From the IMG/VR virus record IMGVR_UViG_3300029167_000082: 11,389 bases of DNA; one strand, 5' to 3'. The stretch's first letter is position 1; every line of letters begins with the position of its first letter. Origin of the DNA: a virus (lineage: Duplodnaviria > Heunggongvirae > Uroviricota > Caudoviricetes). Below are positions 1,704 to 10,732 of this stretch, piece after piece. Both the position numbers and the translations under genes were made by a program. Under the pieces are notes generated by a model that worked only from the letters and a program-made list of their open reading frames with translations, made no database searches and was not told the DNA's origin.

Positions 1704-4145
1704 TCAATCATCACTCTGCCCGCTCTCCACACCGTAAGCGCGTGGCATGAACTCCTCAGCCTTCTCGTTATAGCCAACGTTGGTTTGCGCTCTGCCGTTA
1801 ATGCTTCTCGTCAGGTAGCTGGCTCGGTACTCTTTTGCTGCTGATTTTATGGCGCGTGAAAACTTATTGACGGAAAGCGGTTTACCCAAACCGTGATACT
1901 CCATAAACGCCAGATAAAGATGATAAAGATACGTCCTAGGCTCTGGCTGGCCTGCCCATGTACCTCCGCCCATCATCATGCCTTTGGGTTCGTTCATGAA
2001 AAAAAGTGCCGCACACATATCGATAACCGGATCTGTGCCGCGTTTAACGTCTAGCGCCTCCTGAGAATCGCGCTGCTCAAGTAATAGTGACTTTGCTTTG
2101 TTCTGGTCGGCAAAGGTGGTTAGCAGGTGGCGGATAATCACCGGGATTTCTCGCCTGATTTTTGCGGTTAAATCCGGGTCTTTGTCTGCGTCTGATACCG
2201 GGTTATTAAACGGGAATATCACGCGGCGGCGGGCAATGCCCCCGTTTCGCTCCGTGAATGTCATCGGCTCGTTATTGGTTGCCATAACAACGGCATTTAT
2301 CACGGTTGTGAACTGCTTTTCATATTTCCCATCAATCTCTACCGGATCGCCGCCCGTAATGGCTTTAATCCCCGCACCCTCTCCAACATAGCGGGTCTGG
2401 TCAGGCATAATAATCAGGCTTTTTCCTACGAACTGCGCCCGTCCCCGTGCGGTGTCCAGCGTCATCATGCTACCGCTGGCGGTGTTGTGTTCACCTGCCA
2501 GCGTGGTTGCTATGCTGCTGAATACGGATTTCCCACTACCGCCCTCGCCAGTTATCTCAATGAATAGCTGCCAGTCGTGACGCTTCGCCAGCACCATAAA
2601 CAAGGCTGCTTTGATACGCTCGGCCTTATGATGGTCGCCAGCCGTTGCATGATTCAGCCAACGGGTAAAATTGGGGGCGCTGGTGGTAATATTTTCCCCC
2701 GGCGCTGGCGGGGTGTAGGTGATCCCATTGTGGTTCATCAGCCAGTTACCCGGCGAATGGGCGGAAAACGTCTGCGTAGCGAGGTCATAAACGCCGTTAT
2801 CAAAACCAATCAGATCCCCGCTCCGCTCACCAATTACCGGTATTTGCAGCTTCATGGTTGCGACAACCGATTTAATCCCCTTTTCGGTGTAGTGGGCTTC
2901 GTGCTCGTCGAAAATTGCCACCATAACCCTTTCTAATTCGCTGTCTGGTAGCTTCACCCATACGCCAGATTCGTAGCAGTAAACAGTGCCACTATCAGGG
3001 TTAACCGCCAACATATCCCATCGAGATGAAAGCAACCGCGCTTTCTGGCTGGCTGCCATTTGTGCAATATCTCCGACATCGGCTTTACGGCGGGATTTAC
3101 CGCCCTCAATGGCTTGCAATCGCGGTTTCACGGCTTCCCCTTGAATCTGGTACATCGAATCGTTAAACGCAGCCGTAGCGACTTCCAGCCCGTTTTGCTG
3201 GCGGTAGTCGTCCCAGTCGGCTTTGTAGTCTGTCGGCGGCAGTGCCACCCAGCCAGCCACGGATAAGGCGGCTTTCTCTGCGGCATCTTTGCCCGTGTTC
3301 GCCTGTTCGTCCTGCTGGTGGTCGTTATCTGCGGCAATGATAATCTGCGTGGCTGGATATATCCGGCGCATCACTTCGGCAACGGGTAGCAGGTTGCCCG
3401 CGTCAATTGCTGCCACTGCCAGCGCGTCCGGGCGCATCAGGTGAACTGAAAGGGCCGTCGCCAGCCCCTCGGCAATTAAAACGCTCTGCGGCGATTCTGG
3501 CGCGTTTACGGCGTGATATGCCCCGCGCTTTGCTGAACCTGTCAGGAGTCGCTTCTCTCCCTGCGGTGTAATGGTTTGCGCTGCTGCCACTGCGCCGGAT
3601 TCGTCCACCAGCTCCAGCAATAACGAACCATCCGGCATAACCGGATAGTTAAACCCGGTCAGCCCTTTTGATTGCAGGTAATCAGATTCGCCCTGTGTGG
3701 CACTCTGGCGCATTCCGGCATACAGATGGGCAAACGTAGCCCTTCGCTGCTCTGCGTCATCTGCTGCCTGTTGCTGGCGCTCCTGCTCACGCTGCTGGCG
3801 GTCAGCTTCCAGTTGCTCCCTTCTCTGGCTCGCTGCCGCCGGGTCGGTTTGCGCTGCCCGGTAATCAATACCCAGCACATCAGCGGCAAGCTGTGCCGCC
3901 TCTGTGGTGTCGCAGTTGTTCACCTTCTTAATCAGGTCTAAGCCGTCGCCCGCGCCGCATTGGTTACAGATAAAGCTACCGCGACCGTTGTCGTCGAACC
4001 GGAAGCGATCCGTACCGCCACATGCAGGGCAGGGGGCATGACGGCGTGATGAATCAGGCACGTCGATAGACAGGCCAGCCAGCACATAAGGCCAGCGCCC
4101 TGCTGCGGCGCTGGTCACTTCGCGGATAAGGTCGATATTACGCAT
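1704..4145 (-). CDS. P4 alpha-type bifunctional DNA primase / helicase (zinc-binding N-terminus, TOPRIM primase, P-loop NTPase/helicase), about 813 aa
   Basis: ORF-track frame 1704..4178. N-terminal CPACGG...CNQCG zinc-finger-like motif; TOPRIM-like IAEGLATALS and IIAADNDHQ; Walker A GEGGSGKS. Start placed at ATG 4143..4145 (MRNIDLI) because AGGAGG lies 5 nt upstream; the alternative ATG at 4176..4178 lacks an RBS. Confidence 0.85.
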   Translation of the reverse strand: MRNIDLIREVTSAAAGRWPYVLAGLSIDVPDSSRRHAPCPACGGTDRFRFDDNGRGSFICNQCGAGDGLDLIKKVNNCDTTEAAQLAADVLGIDYRAAQTDPAAASQRREQLEADRQQREQERQQQAADDAEQRRATFAHLYAGMRQSATQGESDYLQSKGLTGFNYPVMPDGSLLLELVDESGAVAAAQTITPQGEKRLLTGSAKRGAYHAVNAPESPQSVLIAEGLATALSVHLMRPDALAVAAIDAGNLLPVAEVMRRIYPATQIIIAADNDHQQDEQANTGKDAAEKAALSVAGWVALPPTDYKADWDDYRQQNGLEVATAAFNDSMYQIQGEAVKPRLQAIEGGKSRRKADVGDIAQMAASQKARLLSSRWDMLAVNPDSGTVYCYESGVWVKLPDSELERVMVAIFDEHEAHYTEKGIKSVVATMKLQIPVIGERSGDLIGFDNGVYDLATQTFSAHSPGNWLMNHNGITYTPPAPGENITTSAPNFTRWLNHATAGDHHKAERIKAALFMVLAKRHDWQLFIEITGEGGSGKSVFSSIATTLAGEHNTASGSMMTLDTARGRAQFVGKSLIIMPDQTRYVGEGAGIKAITGGDPVEIDGKYEKQFTTVINAVVMATNNEPMTFTERNGGIARRRVIFPFNNPVSDADKDPDLTAKIRREIPVIIRHLLTTFADQNKAKSLLLEQRDSQEALDVKRGTDPVIDMCAALFFMNEPKGMMMGGGTWAGQPEPRTYLYHLYLAFMEYHGLGKPLSVNKFSRAIKSAAKEYRASYLTRSINGRAQTNVGYNEKAEEFMPRAYGVESGQSDD

Positions 4146-4479
4146 GGTTGCCTCCTGCCACGGTCGCGCCCATATCATTAATCATGCTTTGCCATATCTC
4201 GCGCCCGGTATCAGTCAGGCCACCAGCATTGACGCATTTCTCCAGCATGGTGATCCCGATGCTTTCCCACTGAGGGTATGTCTCTTTGAGTGCTTCGAGC
4301 GCGTAACCATCAATAAGTTGGCGCGTGCCACTGATACCGCCCACCAGTTCCACACGGATTTGCTGGCCTGCCGCGTCAACCATGAAGTAATTGCCACCAT
4401 TGATAGCCGTGATGTGGTTGTAAAGTGCCGCCGCGTACTGGTTCGCCAGCGCATTCAGTCGGAAGTTTTTGGTAATCAT
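4138..4479 (-). CDS. Hypothetical protein, 113 aa
   Basis: ORF-track ORF. GAGGGGG RBS 5 nt upstream of the ATG. Its 3' end overlaps the primase start by 8 nt. No motif recognised. Confidence 0.55.
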   Translation of the reverse strand: MITKNFRLNALANQYAAALYNHITAINGGNYFMVDAAGQQIRVELVGGISGTRQLIDGYALEALKETYPQWESIGITMLEKCVNAGGLTDTGREIWQSMINDMGATVAGGNHA

Positions 4480-5509: not shown

Positions 5510-5703
5510 CGCTTCCCCTCCCGTTCTGCCAATTCTTCAATCAGCCATGCGGTAACGTCACCGGAAAGGCGCTTTAGCGGAGTGGCGATTGCGGATACTT
5601 CGCTATCGGCAAGGTGATGGGGGAAGTCTTCAACCAGACGGGCAATTATTTCAGTCTGGTGCGCGCGTTCTGCGGCCTGCTCTAAGGTGAGTTCACGGCT
5701 CAT
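5506..5703 (-). CDS. Small hypothetical protein, 65 aa
   Basis: ORF-track ORF. GGAGGTGG RBS 5 nt upstream. ATGA overlap with the Icd-like gene stop. No motif recognised. Confidence 0.5.
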   Translation of the reverse strand: MSRELTLEQAAERAHQTEIIARLVEDFPHHLADSEVSAIATPLKRLSGDVTAWLIEELAEREGKR

Positions 5704-5888
5704 GCTGCCACCTCCAGACGGATGCGGCCTGCAAAGAAACAGACGTGATCTCGTGCCAGAGTTTGACGTGCTTCGCGCTCGCTTTCGGCAGCAACATGAT
5801 GGATTTTGGCGGTAATTGTCGGCATGTCGCGGCGAACGGCTGCGATTAACCAGATAAATTGTGGATTTTGGGTAGGGGTAGTAGCCAT
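5700..5888 (-). CDS. Small protein, 62 aa, possibly Icd-like (host cell division inhibitor family as annotated in P4-like islands)
   Basis: C-terminal 62 codons of ORF-track frame 5700..6578. Internal ATG at 5886..5888 (MATTPTQNPQF) is preceded by a strong AAGGAGG RBS. The Icd-like assignment is from recalled resemblance only and is not verified. Confidence 0.5.
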   Translation of the reverse strand: MATTPTQNPQFIWLIAAVRRDMPTITAKIHHVAAESEREARQTLARDHVCFFAGRIRLEVAA

Positions 5889-6077
5889 GATGGCAGCCTC
5901 CTTTGTGTTTAAGGAGTCACCGCCTGAGTTTCCACGCTCTGAAATGGCGGTGACGTTAGCAGGGGTGGAAATACCGGACACAAAGGAAACCGGCCTACGC
6001 GAACGTAGCCCCACTAACGCCACCATAGATACAGTACGGACGAGGCCGCTGATTTGATGTGCGTAGTGAACGGACAC

Positions 6078-6100
6078 AAAAAAAGACGCTTTCGGCGTCT
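6078..6100 (-). terminator. Rho-independent terminator inside the non-coding control region
   Basis: Minus-strand RNA reads AGACGC-CGAAA-GCGUCU followed by six U: stem 6084..6089 / 6095..6100, loop 6090..6094, A-run on plus at 6078..6083. Lies about 190 nt upstream of the Icd-like start. Confidence 0.6.
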
Positions 6101-6155
6101 GTGTCGCCCTGAGTGTGTTCGGGTTTCCACGCCCGGTTGCTGATTTTGCAGCAAC
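6078..6155 (-). ncRNA. Candidate ~75-80 nt small RNA (possible P4 CI / P1 c4-type immunity RNA analogue)
   Basis: Extended -10-like TGTTATAGT on the minus strand (hexamer at plus 6162..6167) about 7 nt upstream of a run that folds as hairpin 6136..6155 (GTTGCTG / CAGCAAC), hairpin 6120..6135 (CGGG-TTTCCACG-CCCG) and the terminator hairpin. Prediction by eye only. Confidence 0.3.
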
Positions 6156-6516
6156 ACTGGGACTATAACACTGATTTTCCTGCTGGTGGTCTGACCTGTA
6201 GGTACTGCCCTTTTTTACATAGTCCGAAAACTCCCCAGACGGGCGCGTAATGCTCCGAAAACTCAAGACAGCGGAATAATTTTCCACTGGCGTAGTGTTG
6301 TCAGAAAAAACTTTCTCGCGCGTACTGGTCACGAAATGCGAAAAAAACTTAGGATTTATTAGGATTCGCAGCCCAATTCTCAGCCCAGAAAACGCCTCTA
6401 AAATGTCGTCATTTGTCGCAACGGCGCGGCGATGAATGTCAGGTTTTGACAGGTTGTAAGGGTTAACATTTGCTAACAGGCCAGCCAGATTAAAGGCTTC
6501 TTTCTGGGCGGCAGGT

Positions 6517-6699
6517 TCATTCAGTATCACGGCGCACCTCCACGAACTCATTAACGAATCTCTCCAAAGGCTGAACACATGGCGACTGATAGCCCTCGCG
6601 GTAAAAGGTCACTCGGTTATGCTCGACGCGCTCAACGGTCACTACAGCCCCGTGAGAATCCTTGTAACGGCTTCCCGGCTGGGGGTTTTGGTTACGCAT
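6517..6699 (-). CDS. Small hypothetical protein, 60 aa
   Basis: ORF-track ORF. Its start overlaps the antirepressor stop by 8 nt, so it is the last gene of the alpA-led operon. No motif recognised. Confidence 0.5.
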   Translation of the reverse strand: MRNQNPQPGSRYKDSHGAVVTVERVEHNRVTFYREGYQSPCVQPLERFVNEFVEVRRDTE

Positions 6700-7537: not shown

Positions 7538-7969
7538 TTAGGCGGCGTTAAACGCGTTCGGGTAGAGTTTCAGAATGTCGGCAATTTCCTGCTGAGAAAG
7601 TCCGTTGTGATCATTTATGTTCGCAAGATGGTTAACATGAGTGATCACTTTCAGAACATCACCACGGCAGGAGAAACGGTAGCGAAGGTGTGTTCCGATA
7701 CCATCAGGATTCTTTTCGTCGATACGCTCCAGAGTGATTCCAAGCTGGCGTTCTAACTCTGTTGCATAGTTACGACCAGAAGACAGACGGCAGTAGCGAA
7801 GAATGTCATTTTCTGTCCATCCCTCTATACCAGTACGCAGCATATAGACTCTGGCACGATGCTTTTTCGGTGTGCGCTTTGGTGCTTGAAGGGATTTTGT
7901 CAGGGGCGTAACATCAGATACGCGAATATCTGAATTAGCCGCCTGTAATGGGCGGTTTTTCTTTTCCAT
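7538..7969 (-). CDS. Hypothetical protein, 143 aa, translationally coupled to alpA
   Basis: ORF-track ORF. Start ATG 7967..7969 overlaps the alpA stop (ATGA). Basic N-terminus (KRTPKKHRAR); no motif recognised. Confidence 0.55.
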   Translation of the reverse strand: MEKKNRPLQAANSDIRVSDVTPLTKSLQAPKRTPKKHRARVYMLRTGIEGWTENDILRYCRLSSGRNYATELERQLGITLERIDEKNPDGIGTHLRYRFSCRGDVLKVITHVNHLANINDHNGLSQQEIADILKLYPNAFNAA

Positions 7970-8172
7970 CAGGCCACCTTCCCGCGGCGTTCTGCCAGCC
8001 AGTTGTGAATCTCAACCGCATCAAACGCAGTTATTTTTTCTCCCAGCTTTACCGGACGTGGTAGTGAACCGTTTCTTACTTTACGGTCGATGGTGGATAC
8101 ACTAACGCCCAGCAATTCAGCCAGGCGGAAGCGTCTGATATAGCCTTTTGTAGGAATAGTGTCGGTGTTCAT
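7969..8172 (-). CDS. alpA: AlpA-family phage transcriptional regulator / excisionase-like HTH protein, 67 aa
   Basis: Size and pattern match the AlpA family (RLAELLGVSVSTIDRKVRNGSLPRPVKLGEKITAFDAVEIHNWLAER). First gene of the operon after the orphan-gene terminator. Confidence 0.8.
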   Translation of the reverse strand: MNTDTIPTKGYIRRFRLAELLGVSVSTIDRKVRNGSLPRPVKLGEKITAFDAVEIHNWLAERRGKVA

Positions 8173-8175
8173 GCT

Positions 8176-8216
8176 TCCCGTAACCTCTTAGCGATAGTTG
8201 TTGCTTCGTTACGGGA
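8176..8216. promoter_or_regulatory. 9-bp inverted repeat TCCCGTAAC / GTTACGGGA straddling the alpA translation-initiation region
   Basis: TCCCGTAAC at 8176..8184 and GTTACGGGA at 8208..8216 are perfect reverse complements, 23 nt apart, 4 nt upstream of the alpA ATG (8170..8172). Could be an operator or an mRNA hairpin over the SD. Confidence 0.4.
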
Positions 8217-8240
8217 GGAAGTATCTGTACATATATGAAC

Positions 8241-8270
8241 AATAAAAAGGCACAGTAATGATACTGTGCC
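8241..8270 (-). terminator. Rho-independent terminator downstream of the 321-aa orphan gene
   Basis: Minus-strand RNA reads GGCACAGUA-UCAU-UACUGUGCC followed by UUUUUAUU. Perfect 9-bp stem 8249..8257 / 8262..8270, starting 16 nt after the TAG stop at 8287..8289. Confidence 0.65.
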
Positions 8271-8286
8271 TGAATAGTTAGCTACT

Positions 8287-9252: not shown

Positions 9253-9347
9253 TGCGTCACCTTTTACGCTGCGCCTTATTTTGTGATTGAGCCAGGCGGT
9301 AAGGCTTCCCGCTTTTCGCCCCGTCGAGCTAGGCTCAATCTATTCAG

Positions 9348-10607
9348 TTAGTTCGCCCTTCTGAGAGGCGTTACGTTGTAGTCTTTTCCGCTTTCCAGTG
9401 CCACCAGCAGATCAGCCCACTGTGCCAGTGCTGCTTTACGCTCATCAAAATACTGATGGCGGTTATAAATCCCCTCTACGCCCTTAATGCGATGATTGAG
9501 GCATCGTTCCGCCACGACAGGATCAACACCCAACGCTGCTAAATGAGTACGTGCGGTGCGTCGGAAGTCGTGAATCGTGAAATTAGGCACATCCGGCATT
9601 TCGGCGCGAACCTTAGCCAGTGCTACGGGCAAAGTGCTTTCCTGAATATGTGGGATCATTCTGTTTTGCATCTTCCTGGCTGGAAGCACCCATGCGCTAT
9701 TACATGAAAAGGTGTGTAGCTCTCTCAACCATTCAACGGCTGGGGAAGGTAGAGGTATATCAATAGGGTCTCCGTTTTTGCTGCGTTCTTCCGGCAAATG
9801 CCATACCGCACCATCTAAATCAAACTCTTCCCATCGTGCGGCGCATAACTCCATCTTACGAACGCATAGTGCCAGCAATAGCTTAAATGTCAGTTCGTTC
9901 TGGCGGCTGAATCCTTTTGCGGTGCGCATAGCCTCGAATAGCCTGATAAGCTCATCGCGAGTTAGCCAACGGTCGCGGGAAACCTCTTTACCACCAGCAT
10001 CAGATACTTCAAACGCTGAACAAGGGTTTATCTCCAGAGCGTGGCGTTTTATCCCGTAGTCAAAGATACGGCGTGTCCAGCGTAATACATCTGTTGCTAT
10101 CGTTGGTGCTCCTCGGTCAACGATACCTTTCAACATGTCGTCAATGTGGCGTGGCTTAACGTCCTCTACCTTCATATGCCCAATGCAGGGGTTAATATCC
10201 TTATCAATTCTCCGGCGAAGGATATCGGGATGTTTCCATCTCGGAAGTATCTGGCGCTCGAAGTATTCGGAGGCCAGATCTGAAACACGCATGGCGTTTT
10301 TCTCAGCCTCCATTTTTGCCAGTGCTTCAGCTTTTCGTTCCTGTTTCTCTGCTGCTACGTCATAGCCAAGAGCAACTCTGGCTGACAGCTCTTTTGCTGT
10401 TTCTCTGGCTTTTGATAGTGACAGTTCGGAGTAAGAGCCTATAACCATAGCCCGCTGCTTTCCTGCGAGCTTATAGCGGAATCGCCAGAACGGGGCTGTG
10501 TAGTTTTTGGGGTAGCAAATATAAAGGCCGTTGCCGTCTGCCTTGCCATCAAATCTGTCTCCCGCCTTTATCCATGCGCGGATCTGCATATCTGTGAGTT
10601 TTGGCAT
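9348..10607 (-). CDS. int: P4-family tyrosine recombinase / integrase, 419 aa
   Basis: ORF-track frame 9348..10691. N-terminus MPKLTD..I.AWIK....DGK.DGNGLYI...WRFRYK matches the P4-type arm-binding domain. C-terminal catalytic region has HDFRRTARTHLAALG and GIYNRHQY (candidate catalytic Tyr). Start chosen at ATG 10605..10607 by homology pattern; the upstream ATG at 10691 lacks an RBS. Confidence 0.9.
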   Translation of the reverse strand: MPKLTDMQIRAWIKAGDRFDGKADGNGLYICYPKNYTAPFWRFRYKLAGKQRAMVIGSYSELSLSKARETAKELSARVALGYDVAAEKQERKAEALAKMEAEKNAMRVSDLASEYFERQILPRWKHPDILRRRIDKDINPCIGHMKVEDVKPRHIDDMLKGIVDRGAPTIATDVLRWTRRIFDYGIKRHALEINPCSAFEVSDAGGKEVSRDRWLTRDELIRLFEAMRTAKGFSRQNELTFKLLLALCVRKMELCAARWEEFDLDGAVWHLPEERSKNGDPIDIPLPSPAVEWLRELHTFSCNSAWVLPARKMQNRMIPHIQESTLPVALAKVRAEMPDVPNFTIHDFRRTARTHLAALGVDPVVAERCLNHRIKGVEGIYNRHQYFDERKAALAQWADLLVALESGKDYNVTPLRRAN

Positions 10608-10635
10608 TGCGAATACCTGAATATCGAATATGGGT

Positions 10636-10688
10636 GTGTACATAAAGCAATGTACATGAAAGTCATTATGTACACCTCTATGTACACG
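10636..10688 (+). repeat. Four direct repeats of (A)TGTACA(T/C) upstream of int; candidate integrase arm-type or regulator binding sites
   Basis: TGTACAT at 10637 and 10651, TGTACAC at 10669 and 10681, all within about 50 bp between the int start and the yicC terminator. One more TGTACAT at 8226..8232 upstream of alpA. Confidence 0.45.
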
Positions 10689-10732
10689 CATATTGTGCGC
10701 TTTATTGCGTCGTTATGATAGCTCATGATAAC

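What the first reader, a model, noticed from the sequence alone, without database searches (positions are those of the whole stretch)
5925..6136. Identical 10-nt motif GTTTCCACGC presented twice as the loop of short hairpins with different stems
GTTTCCACGC occurs at 5928..5937 and 6123..6132. In both places the 8-nt core TTTCCACG is flanked by a short inverted repeat, but the stems differ (GAG/CTC at 5926..5939; CGGG/CCCG at 6120..6135). That is the pattern expected for a conserved stem-loop recognised by a protein or an RNA. One copy lies inside the candidate small RNA and the other inside the inverted repeat just upstream of the Icd-like RBS. Both copies are in the same sense, so they cannot pair with each other. 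A partial reversed copy (GTGGAAA, 5965..5971) lies between them.
Basis: seen in the sequence. Interest (0 to 1): 0.55.

Follow-up and report, generated by a model that had tools for sequence, protein, structure and literature searches.

The report
Target sites of C4/CI antisense RNA
The twice-repeated motif is the pair of target sites (a1/a2 in phage P1, part of seqA/seqC in phage P4) for a C4/CI-type antisense immunity RNA encoded between them, a well-known switch that here sits in a rare E. coli satellite-like island.

Summary
GTTTCCACGC occurs exactly at 5928-5937 and 6123-6132, and each copy has its 8-nt core flanked by a short inverted repeat. The functional strand is the minus strand, where the motif reads GCGUGGAAAC.

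Rfam places three families here above their gathering scores:
- a C4 antisense RNA at 5943-6030;
- an isrK-like leader at 6079-6155;
- "c4-a1b1" at 6116-6168.

The upstream copy is a1, in the loop of the leader's second hairpin. The downstream copy is a2, between the 3' end of C4 and the RBS of an Icd-like ORF. The "partial reversed copy" at 5965-5971 is a', the single-stranded segment of C4 that pairs with both copies.

The comparative evidence is strong. Among 124 non-identical homologous loci chosen only by the C4 helix, 122 carry the exact complement of their own a' both upstream and downstream. They span 16 different a' heptamers. A second box set (b'/b1/b2, with b2 covering the RBS) covaries in the same way. 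The a2 stem covaries; the a1 stem is nearly invariant.

P1 (annotated a1/a2) and P4 (CI RNA, seqA) have the same architecture. The recogniser is therefore an RNA, not a protein. The system is already known, and interest is low.

The parts
6162..6170 (-). Putative extended -10 promoter element (TGT TATAGT) of the leader/C4/icd transcript. The predicted start is near 6155.
   Evidence: Read directly from the sequence. A TATAGT/TATATT-like hexamer sits 6-7 nt upstream of the leader start in all 17 loci compared. The consensus scanner did not call it. Function is inferred.
6079..6155 (-). isrK / P4 seqA-like leader RNA: hairpin 1, hairpin 2 carrying a1, imperfect b1, and an intrinsic terminator.
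   Evidence: Rfam RF01394, 72.1 bits (gathering score 50). RF03163 'a1, b1 targets of C4 antisense RNA', 54.9 bits (gathering score 46.7) at 6116-6168.
6120..6135 (-). Leader hairpin 2: CGGG [C GUGGAAA] CCCG. The a1 heptamer GUGGAAA is at 6124-6130.
   Evidence: The stem is paired in 100% of cells and the a1/a' pairs show compensatory change at 6 of 7 positions. P1 annotates the equivalent site as a1.
6108..6116 (-). Imperfect b1 box: ACACUCAGG, against b2 ACACAAAGG.
   Evidence: 2 mismatches to the complement of the central 8 nt of b'.
6078..6100 (-). Intrinsic terminator of the leader: AGACGC-CGAAA-GCGUCU followed by a U-run.
   Evidence: It is present in every homologous locus.
5943..6030 (-). 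C4 / P4 CI-type antisense RNA.
   Evidence: Rfam RF01695, 81.1 bits (gathering score 45), full-length match. Minimum free energy -38.9 kcal/mol, z = -4.75.
5978..5989 (-). b' : the 12-nt loop of C4 hairpin 2 (UUUCCUUUGUGU). It is complementary to b2 and the RBS.
   Evidence: inverted repeat I6 (10 nt, 100%)..
5965..5971 (-). a': the single-stranded UUUCCAC segment of C4, complementary to a1 and a2.
   Evidence: an unpaired region of the Rfam consensus. for the comparative support.
5926..5939 (-). a2 hairpin: GAG [C GUGGAAA] CUC. The a2 heptamer is at 5929-5935.
   Evidence: All 3 stem pairs show double changes among homologues, with 84.6% of cells paired. P1 annotates the equivalent site as a2.
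5916..5954 (-). Alternative hairpin. The 3' arm of C4 (5946-5954) pairs with a downstream arm (5916-5924), enclosing a2.
   Evidence: inverted repeat I10 (9 nt, 100%). (fourth fold); 94.9% of cells paired and 6 of 9 pairs with compensatory change.
5897..5908 (-). b2 box overlapping the Shine-Dalgarno sequence: ACACAAAGGAGG.
   Evidence: The b2 box matches the complement of the locus's own b' exactly in 103 of 124 loci.
5700..5888 (-). Icd-like ORF (62 aa), the first gene of the regulated operon, which runs on to the P4-family primase at 1704-4178.
   Evidence: NCBIfam NF033153, 73.7 bits (cut-off 25)..

Best explanation
The two copies of GCGUGGAAAC (minus strand) are the a1 and a2 target sites of a C4/CI-type antisense immunity RNA. 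In phage P4 terms they are part of seqA and seqC.

Proposed mechanism:
1. One transcript starts near 6155 from an extended -10 promoter.
2. It first makes an isrK/seqA-like leader. This carries a1 in the 8-nt loop of its second hairpin, a weak b1, and an intrinsic terminator.
3. Read-through transcribes the C4 RNA, which is cut out of the transcript. In P1 and P4 this is done by RNase P.
4. Mature C4 exposes two single-stranded segments: a' (UUUCCAC) and the loop b' (CCUUUGUGU).
5. These pair with a2 (in a small hairpin loop just 3' of C4) and with b2 (overlapping the Shine-Dalgarno sequence AAGGAGG of the Icd-like ORF).
6. That pairing blocks translation. By polarity or premature termination it also shuts off the downstream replication operon (small ORFs, P4-family primase, SSB).
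7. The upstream copy a1 binds the same a' segment. It may help C4-dependent termination and establishment of immunity (P4 seqA). Alternatively, as the short terminated leader RNA, it may titrate C4 in trans and so de-repress the operon (Gifsy-1 IsrK).

Shown here: the RNA family matches, the complementarities, the hairpin presentation, and three-way covariation across homologues. Inferred from P1, P4 and Gifsy-1: RNA processing, repression, and the role of a1.
For: - Family matches: Rfam hits above gathering score for C4, isrK and c4-a1b1, all on the minus strand and in the canonical order.
- Complementarity in the window: a' is exactly complementary to a 7-nt core in both motif copies, and b' to the 10 nt covering the RBS.
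- All 17 E. coli and phage loci fetched, plus P1, show the same order: leader, C4, a2, b2/RBS, ATG.
- P4's CI RNA and leader hit the same Rfam models. P4 has a1 GUGAGAA and a' UUCUCAC.
- Of 124 non-identical loci selected only by the C4 long helix, 122 have the exact complement of their own a' both upstream and downstream. Of 109 scaffold matches lacking the helix, 1 does.
- There are 16 a' variants, 36 b' variants and 63 combinations. When a' was swapped between loci, none of 2480 trials matched on both sides.
- Pair counts: a'/a2 has compensatory change at 6 of 7 positions and a'/a1 at 6 of 7.
- Experiments on a homologue: in Gifsy-1, IsrK G28 and G31 in the middle hairpin pair with C162 and C159 of the downstream STnc1160/'orf45' region, shown by compensatory mutations (PMC4825925).
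- Literature equating these elements: isrK = seqA and C4 = CI (PMC3632133). The same two Rfam families have been reported in PICI-type satellites (PMC10111431).
Against: - No expression, processing or repression data exist for this island.
- b1 is imperfect here, with 2 mismatches.
- The a2 stem is only 3 bp, -1.6 kcal/mol.
- The minimum-free-energy fold of the leader does not use the a1 stem; it is 0.7 kcal/mol better than the Rfam-type fold.
- Duplex energies are not strongly discriminating for 7-nt boxes. For a' against the leader, 11 of 500 shuffles did as well; for a' against the downstream region, 42 of 500.
- The loci used for the pair counts were pre-selected for exact a1 and a2 matches. 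For the a' helices, the percentage paired is therefore true by construction. The unbiased figure is 122 of 124.
Confidence: 0.93

Rival explanations
1. The hairpin loops are binding sites for a protein, for example one of the island's small regulators, as the first reader suggested as an alternative.
For: Two identical 8-nt loops closed by a G-C pair look like a protein-recognised stem-loop. The island encodes AlpA-type and other small proteins of unknown function.
Against: Across homologues the loop takes 16 different sequences but is always the exact complement of that locus's own a' in C4. A protein site would conserve sequence or covary with a protein, not with a 7-nt RNA segment. The same cassette sits in P1-like plasmids, lambdoid prophages, P4 and islands that have unrelated neighbouring proteins.
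Confidence: 0.03
2. On the role of the upstream copy only: a1 acts mainly in trans. The short, terminated leader RNA acts as a decoy (anti-antisense). It titrates a' of C4, or the a' region of the read-through transcript, and so activates the operon as IsrK does in Gifsy-1. On this view it is not a co-target that reinforces repression.
For: The leader matches the isrK model and ends in an intrinsic terminator. In Gifsy-1, IsrK supplied in trans activates the downstream genes 100-fold or more, and the loop mutants G28A and G31A abolish this (PMC4825925, Table 1). Here b1 is degenerate while a1 is perfect, so the leader is a weaker full target than the a2/b2 region.
Against: In P4 the seqA region is reported as required to establish immunity and for C4/CI-dependent termination (as summarised in PMC3632133 and PMC10111431). 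Nothing in the sequence tells the two roles apart, and they are not mutually exclusive.
Confidence: 0.35
3. The 10-mer repeat is a chance or DNA-level feature, such as a duplication remnant, an operator or an iteron, with no RNA function.
For: 7% of shuffles of the 432-nt region contain some repeated 10-mer. Other 10-11-nt repeats occur nearby.
Against: Only 0.2% of shuffles also place a 7-nt reverse complement between the copies. The triple arrangement recurs at fixed positions in 122 of 124 homologues with changed sequence. Both copies fall within, or directly beside, Rfam-defined RNA elements.
Confidence: 0.01

Closest known systems
Phage P1/P7 immI module: c4 antisense RNA with targets a1, b1 (upstream) and a2, b2 (icd-ant mRNA)
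   Same: - Same order of elements on one strand: promoter, leader with a1/b1, C4, a2, b2 over the RBS, then icd.
- Same Rfam families: P1 C4 scores 68.8 bits and c4-a1b1 51 bits.
- A 7-nt a box sits in the loop of leader hairpin 2 and again just 3' of C4 (P1: TTGACAG twice, a' CTGTCAA).
- The first ORF is Icd-like.
   Different: - The box sequences differ: GUGGAAA / ACACAAAGG here, UUGACAG / GUUAGUG in P1.
- Downstream of icd, P1 has the antirepressor ant1/2. Here there are small ORFs plus a P4-family primase and SSB, and an AntA-like gene lies upstream instead.
- P1's promoter is controlled by a C1 operator. No equivalent operator was identified here.
Satellite phage P4 immunity: CI RNA (seqB) with targets seqA and seqC, acting by premature transcription termination
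   Same: - P4's CI RNA and leader hit the same C4 and isrK models (74.9 and 60.8 bits) with the same a/b box layout.
- The element type is similar: integrase, AlpA/Vis-like regulator, immunity RNA region, then a P4-family primase on one strand.
- The regulated operon is the replication operon.
   Different: - P4's a box is GUGAGAA.
- This island shows no recognisable sid/psu/delta or epsilon genes, either in the window or in the RefSeq annotation of the island.
- It carries an AntA/AntB gene and a DUF4222 gene upstream of the RNA region.
- The spacer between leader and C4 is 48 nt here. It is 107 nt in the closest P4-like loci L009, L013 and L014.
Salmonella Gifsy-1 IsrK / STnc1160 ('orf45') - anrP locus
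   Same: - The leader matches the isrK model (72.1 bits).
- The loop of the middle hairpin (a1) pairs with the downstream C4-like region, as shown there by compensatory mutations (PMC4825925).
- An intrinsic terminator gives a short and a read-through isoform.
   Different: - In Gifsy-1 the downstream effector is the antirepressor AnrP, and the published model treats the C4-like region as a translated ORF.
- Here the effector operon is Icd-like plus replication genes.
- Hfq binding and trans-activation are untested here.

Membership tests
C4/CI antisense-RNA immunity module (P1 immI, P4 immunity) | A C4-type RNA (long closing helix, two hairpins, single-stranded a' segment) scoring above the Rfam gathering score | tested here: met
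   RF01695: 81.1 bits against a gathering score of 45, model positions 1-87 of 87, at 5943-6030 on the minus strand. The fold has z = -4.75.
C4/CI antisense-RNA immunity module (P1 immI, P4 immunity) | An upstream leader on the same strand carrying the a1/b1 targets | tested here: met
   RF03163: 54.9 bits against 46.7. RF01394: 72.1 bits against 50. a1 is an exact 7-nt complement of a'. b1 is imperfect, with 2 mismatches.
C4/CI antisense-RNA immunity module (P1 immI, P4 immunity) | Downstream targets a2 and b2, with b2 overlapping the RBS of the first ORF | tested here: met
   a2 (5929-5935) is an exact complement of a'. b2 (5899-5908) is complementary to b' over 10 nt and overlaps the Shine-Dalgarno sequence AAGGAGG.
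C4/CI antisense-RNA immunity module (P1 immI, P4 immunity) | Targets and antisense boxes change together among homologues (heteroimmunity-type covariation) | tested here: met
   122 of 124 loci have both a1 and a2 matching their own a'. There are 16 a' and 36 b' variants. Swapped controls gave 0 of 2480.
C4/CI antisense-RNA immunity module (P1 immI, P4 immunity) | The first regulated ORF is Icd/Kil-like | tested here: met
   NF033153 phage_ICD_like: 73.7 bits against a cut-off of 25, for the 62-aa ORF at 5700-5888.
C4/CI antisense-RNA immunity module (P1 immI, P4 immunity) | C4 is excised from the leader transcript by RNase P and represses translation and/or causes termination | not testable with these tools
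   Needs Northern blots or RNA-seq, an RNase P ts mutant and reporter fusions. Inferred only, from P1, P4 and Gifsy-1.
IsrK dual-function RNA (Gifsy-1) | A ~77-90-nt leader with three hairpins, the last an intrinsic terminator, plus read-through into a C4-like region complementary to the middle hairpin | tested here: met
IsrK dual-function RNA (Gifsy-1) | Trans-activation of a downstream antirepressor (AnrP) and Hfq association | not testable with these tools
   Here the downstream genes are Icd-like plus replication genes, not an AnrP-type antirepressor. Activity cannot be assessed computationally.
P4-like satellite phage | Integrase, AlpA/Vis-type regulator and P4-family primase | tested here: met
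   Pfam: integrase domains, Phage_AlpA, and Zn_Ribbon_Prim/Toprim_3/D5_N. RefSeq names the product 'phage/plasmid primase, P4 family'.
P4-like satellite phage | Helper-exploitation genes (sid, psu, delta, epsilon) | tested here: inconclusive
   Pfam and NCBIfam found none in the window ORFs scanned, and the RefSeq annotation of the whole yicC-dinD island names none. Several hypothetical proteins were not searched further.

The most novel reading that the evidence does not exclude
In the unprocessed read-through transcript, the 3' arm of C4 (5946-5954) pairs with a covarying downstream arm (5916-5924) instead of with the 5' arm of C4. This places a2 in the loop. Together with a'-a2 pairing in cis it gives an H-type pseudoknot, a self-repressed conformer that competes with C4 folding and RNase P processing. 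If so, the hairpin presentation of a2 would be part of a co-transcriptional switch and not merely a display loop. I found no description of this helix in the papers I could read.
Probability: 0.25. Interest if true: 0.35.

Novelty: already known. Interest (0 to 1): 0.12.

Why it matters
The finding assigns a clear function to an otherwise puzzling repeat. It also shows that this rare yicC-dinD island, found in 9 of 5426 complete E. coli genomes, controls its replication operon with a P1/P4-type antisense immunity switch.

On the practical side, it exposes an annotation error. RefSeq calls a long 'Icd-like' CDS straight across the two RNA genes.

The survey of 16 a-box and 36 b-box variants in 63 combinations illustrates how modular the specificity of this immunity system is. 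That bears on cross-immunity between co-resident prophages, plasmids and satellites. None of this changes the known mechanism.

Tried and rejected
- I first labelled the motif b1/b2. P1's own annotation and sequence showed that the box in the leader's hairpin-2 loop, repeated immediately 3' of C4, is 'a', so I renamed it.
- The search for related loci with an alignment of Icd-like proteins failed: no stretch was conserved enough.
- The degenerate DNA pattern scan of genome contigs returned mostly chance matches in high-GC genomes. I filtered these out with a criterion based on the C4 helix.
- RNAduplex energies with shuffled queries were only weakly discriminating for 7-nt boxes. I did not rely on them.
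- The minimum-free-energy fold of the leader does not reproduce the Rfam hairpin 2. I treat the a1 stem as supported by conservation and the family model rather than by thermodynamics.
- Sabbattini et al. 1995, the primary P4 seqA/seqC paper (PMC176756), is not held in the library. P4 mechanism statements therefore rest on later papers' summaries and on established knowledge.
- The other repeated 10-mer, CGGACACAAA (5975-5984 and 6071-6080), joins the b' loop to the conserved UGUGUC that follows the terminator in nearly all loci. I judged it coincidental to this b' variant and did not pursue it.

Full report
**Observation**

GTTTCCACGC occurs exactly at 5928-5937 and 6123-6132 on the + strand. 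Reading the sequence confirms the short inverted repeats: GAG 5926-5928 / CTC 5937-5939, and CGGG 6120-6123 / CCCG 6132-6135. It also confirms GTGGAAA at 5965-5971. In dinucleotide-preserving shuffles of the 432-nt non-coding stretch 5889-6320, 7% contain some repeated 10-mer. Only 0.2% also have a 7-nt reverse complement between the copies. The repeat alone is therefore only mildly unusual.

**What is there**

All genes of the window run on the minus strand:
- integrase, 9348-10691;
- an AlpA-type regulator, 7969-8172;
- an AntA/AntB protein and a DUF4222 protein;
- a ~630-nt non-coding gap;
- a 62-aa Icd-like ORF, 5700-5888 (NF033153, 73.7 bits);
- small ORFs, a P4-family primase (1704-4178) and SSB.

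The window is 100% identical to an island between yicC and dinD in E. coli ECONIH4 and a few other strains. It is present in 9 of 5426 complete genomes.

Rfam finds three families on the minus strand of the gap, all above gathering score:
- a C4 antisense RNA at 5943-6030 (81.1 bits);
- an isrK-like RNA at 6079-6155 (72.1 bits);
- 'c4-a1b1, a1, b1 targets of C4 antisense RNA' at 6116-6168 (54.9 bits).

On that strand the motif reads GCGUGGAAAC. The upstream copy is the loop (C GUGGAAA, closed by a G-C pair) of the leader's second hairpin. The downstream copy lies 6 nt after the C4 match, again as an 8-nt loop closed by G-C. The 'partial reversed copy' at 5965-5971 reads UUUCCAC on this strand. 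It sits in the unpaired segment of C4 between hairpin 2 and the 3' arm.

**Naming**

Phage P1's record annotates these sites:
- a1, TTGACAG, in the same leader hairpin loop;
- b1;
- the c4 RNA, with a' CTGTCAA and b' CACTAAC;
- a2, TTGACAG, directly 3' of c4;
- b2, over the icd RBS.

A second box set exists here too. The C4 loop b' (CCUUUGUGU, within 5978-5989) is complementary to ACACAAAGGA at 5899-5908, which overlaps the Shine-Dalgarno sequence AAGGAGG (repeat I6). The upstream b1 (6108-6116) is imperfect.

Phage P4's CI RNA and its upstream leader hit the same C4 and isrK models. So P4's seqA/seqB/seqC correspond to a1b1/a'b'/a2b2. The literature already says this: isrK = seqA and C4 = CI (PMC3632133). 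The same two Rfam families have been reported in PICI-type satellites (PMC10111431).

**Comparative test**

The 441-nt control region has relatives in 924 of 5426 E. coli genomes and in P1-like and lambdoid phages. All 17 loci fetched have the order leader, terminator, C4, a2, b2/RBS, ATG.

A degenerate scaffold pattern then pulled loci from species-representative genomes and IMG/VR. I selected loci only by whether the 17-bp C4 closing helix forms. This gave 124 non-identical loci:
- 122 carry the exact reverse complement of their own 7-nt a' both upstream and downstream;
- the other 2 carry it downstream only;
- of 109 scaffold matches without the helix (chance hits), 1 carries both.

There are 16 different a' heptamers, 36 b' octamers and 63 combinations. 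When a' was swapped between loci, none of 2480 trials matched on both sides. The b boxes behave the same way: b2 is exact in 103 of 124 loci and b1 in 84 of 124.

**Pair counts**

| Helix | Cells paired | Pairs with compensatory (both-side) change |
|---|---|---|
| a'-a2 | 86.5% | 6 of 7 |
| a'-a1 | 100% | 6 of 7 |
| a2 short stem | 84.6% | 3 of 3 |
| a1 stem (CGGG/CCCG) | 100% | 3 of 4, each in 1 of 35 sequences |
| C4 3' arm with downstream arm | 94.9% | 6 of 9 |

The loci in these alignments were pre-selected for exact a matches. For the a' helices the percentage paired is therefore true by construction, and the unbiased figure is 122 of 124. Examples of a2 stem variants are GAG/CUC, AAGGU/GCCUU, AUCC/GGAU and GCCG/CGGC. 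The a1 stem is almost invariant, so it is uninformative.

**Mechanism**

Shown here:
- the family matches;
- the complementarity of a' and b' to targets on both sides;
- loop presentation of a1 and a2;
- overlap of b2 with the RBS;
- the leader's intrinsic terminator;
- three-way covariation.

Inferred from P1, P4 and Gifsy-1:
1. One transcript from an extended -10 promoter (TGTTATAGT, 6162-6170) yields the leader and, on read-through, C4.
2. C4 is excised by RNase P.
3. C4 then pairs with a2/b2. This blocks translation of the Icd-like ORF and, through polarity or termination, expression of the primase operon.

The role of a1 is not settled by sequence. In P4 the seqA region is needed to establish immunity. 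[quoted passage not shown] The two roles are not mutually exclusive.

A protein recogniser is disfavoured. The loop sequence is free to change as long as it matches a', and the cassette occurs next to unrelated proteins in P1-like plasmids, lambdoid prophages, P4-like satellites and this island.

**Caveats**

- The a2 stem is weak, -1.6 kcal/mol.
- The leader's minimum-free-energy fold is 0.7 kcal/mol better than the Rfam-type fold and does not use the a1 stem.
- Duplex-energy tests are not very discriminating for 7-nt boxes.
- No expression data exist for this island.

**Additional structure**

The 3' arm of C4 (5946-5954) is perfectly complementary to 5916-5924, and the two enclose a2 (repeat I10). 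This helix covaries across classes: 94.9% of cells are paired and 6 of 9 pairs show double changes. Together with a'-a2 pairing in cis, it has H-type pseudoknot topology. It could be an alternative conformer of the unprocessed transcript.

**Verdict**

The system is the well-known C4/CI antisense immunity module. Its presence in satellite or PICI-type islands has already been noted in the literature. Novelty: already known. Interest: low.

Noticed in passing
window 9273-9339 (-): An int-alpA RNA motif (Rfam RF02996, 60.6 bits against a gathering score of 35.8) lies immediately downstream of the integrase gene.
   Followed up: no
window 5700-6578 (-); L001 8791-9621: RefSeq/PGAP annotates one long 'host cell division inhibitor Icd-like protein' CDS across the whole leader and C4 region. 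Only the last 62 aa (5700-5888) match the Icd-like model. In other genomes, 'ash family protein' CDSs or pseudogenes overlie C4. These are probable over-calls on RNA genes.
   Followed up: partly
window 6223-6233 and 6254-6264 (weaker copy at 6388-6396): TCCGAAAACTC is an exact 11-nt direct repeat with 31-bp spacing, just upstream of the leader promoter (D10/D3). It could be an operator for a regulator. This was not tested.
   Followed up: no
window 6108-6116 (-): The upstream b1 box is degenerate here: ACACUCAGG against b2 ACACAAAGG, 2 mismatches to the complement of b'. Only 12 of 124 homologous loci have 2 mismatches in b1. In this island the leader may therefore bind C4 mainly through a1.
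   Followed up: partly
window 5916-5924 with 5946-5954 (-): The 3' arm of C4 pairs perfectly with a downstream arm, enclosing a2. The helix covaries among 52 homologues: 94.9% of cells paired and 6 of 9 pairs with double changes. It is mutually exclusive with the C4 closing helix. With a'-a2 pairing in cis it has pseudoknot topology.
   Followed up: partly
window 5886-5898 and the N-terminus of the ORF at 5700-5888; loci L010, L012, L016: The RBS context GGAGGCTGCC, the ATG and the N-terminal peptide MAT(T/I)PT are conserved in front of both Icd-like genes and Rha-type antirepressor genes of lambdoid prophages. The leader-C4-RBS cassette appears to be fused to different effector genes.
   Followed up: no
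L002 1643-1730 and 2133-2220: One E. coli island (strain 2015C-3121) carries two tandem C4 RNAs, each followed by an Icd-like gene. Only the first is preceded by an isrK-like leader.
   Followed up: no
window 8173-8286; L001 5339-6949: The ECONIH4 copy of the island has an ISSpu7 (IS1634-like) insertion between the 321-aa gene and alpA. The window and the other 100%-identical strains lack it.
   Followed up: no
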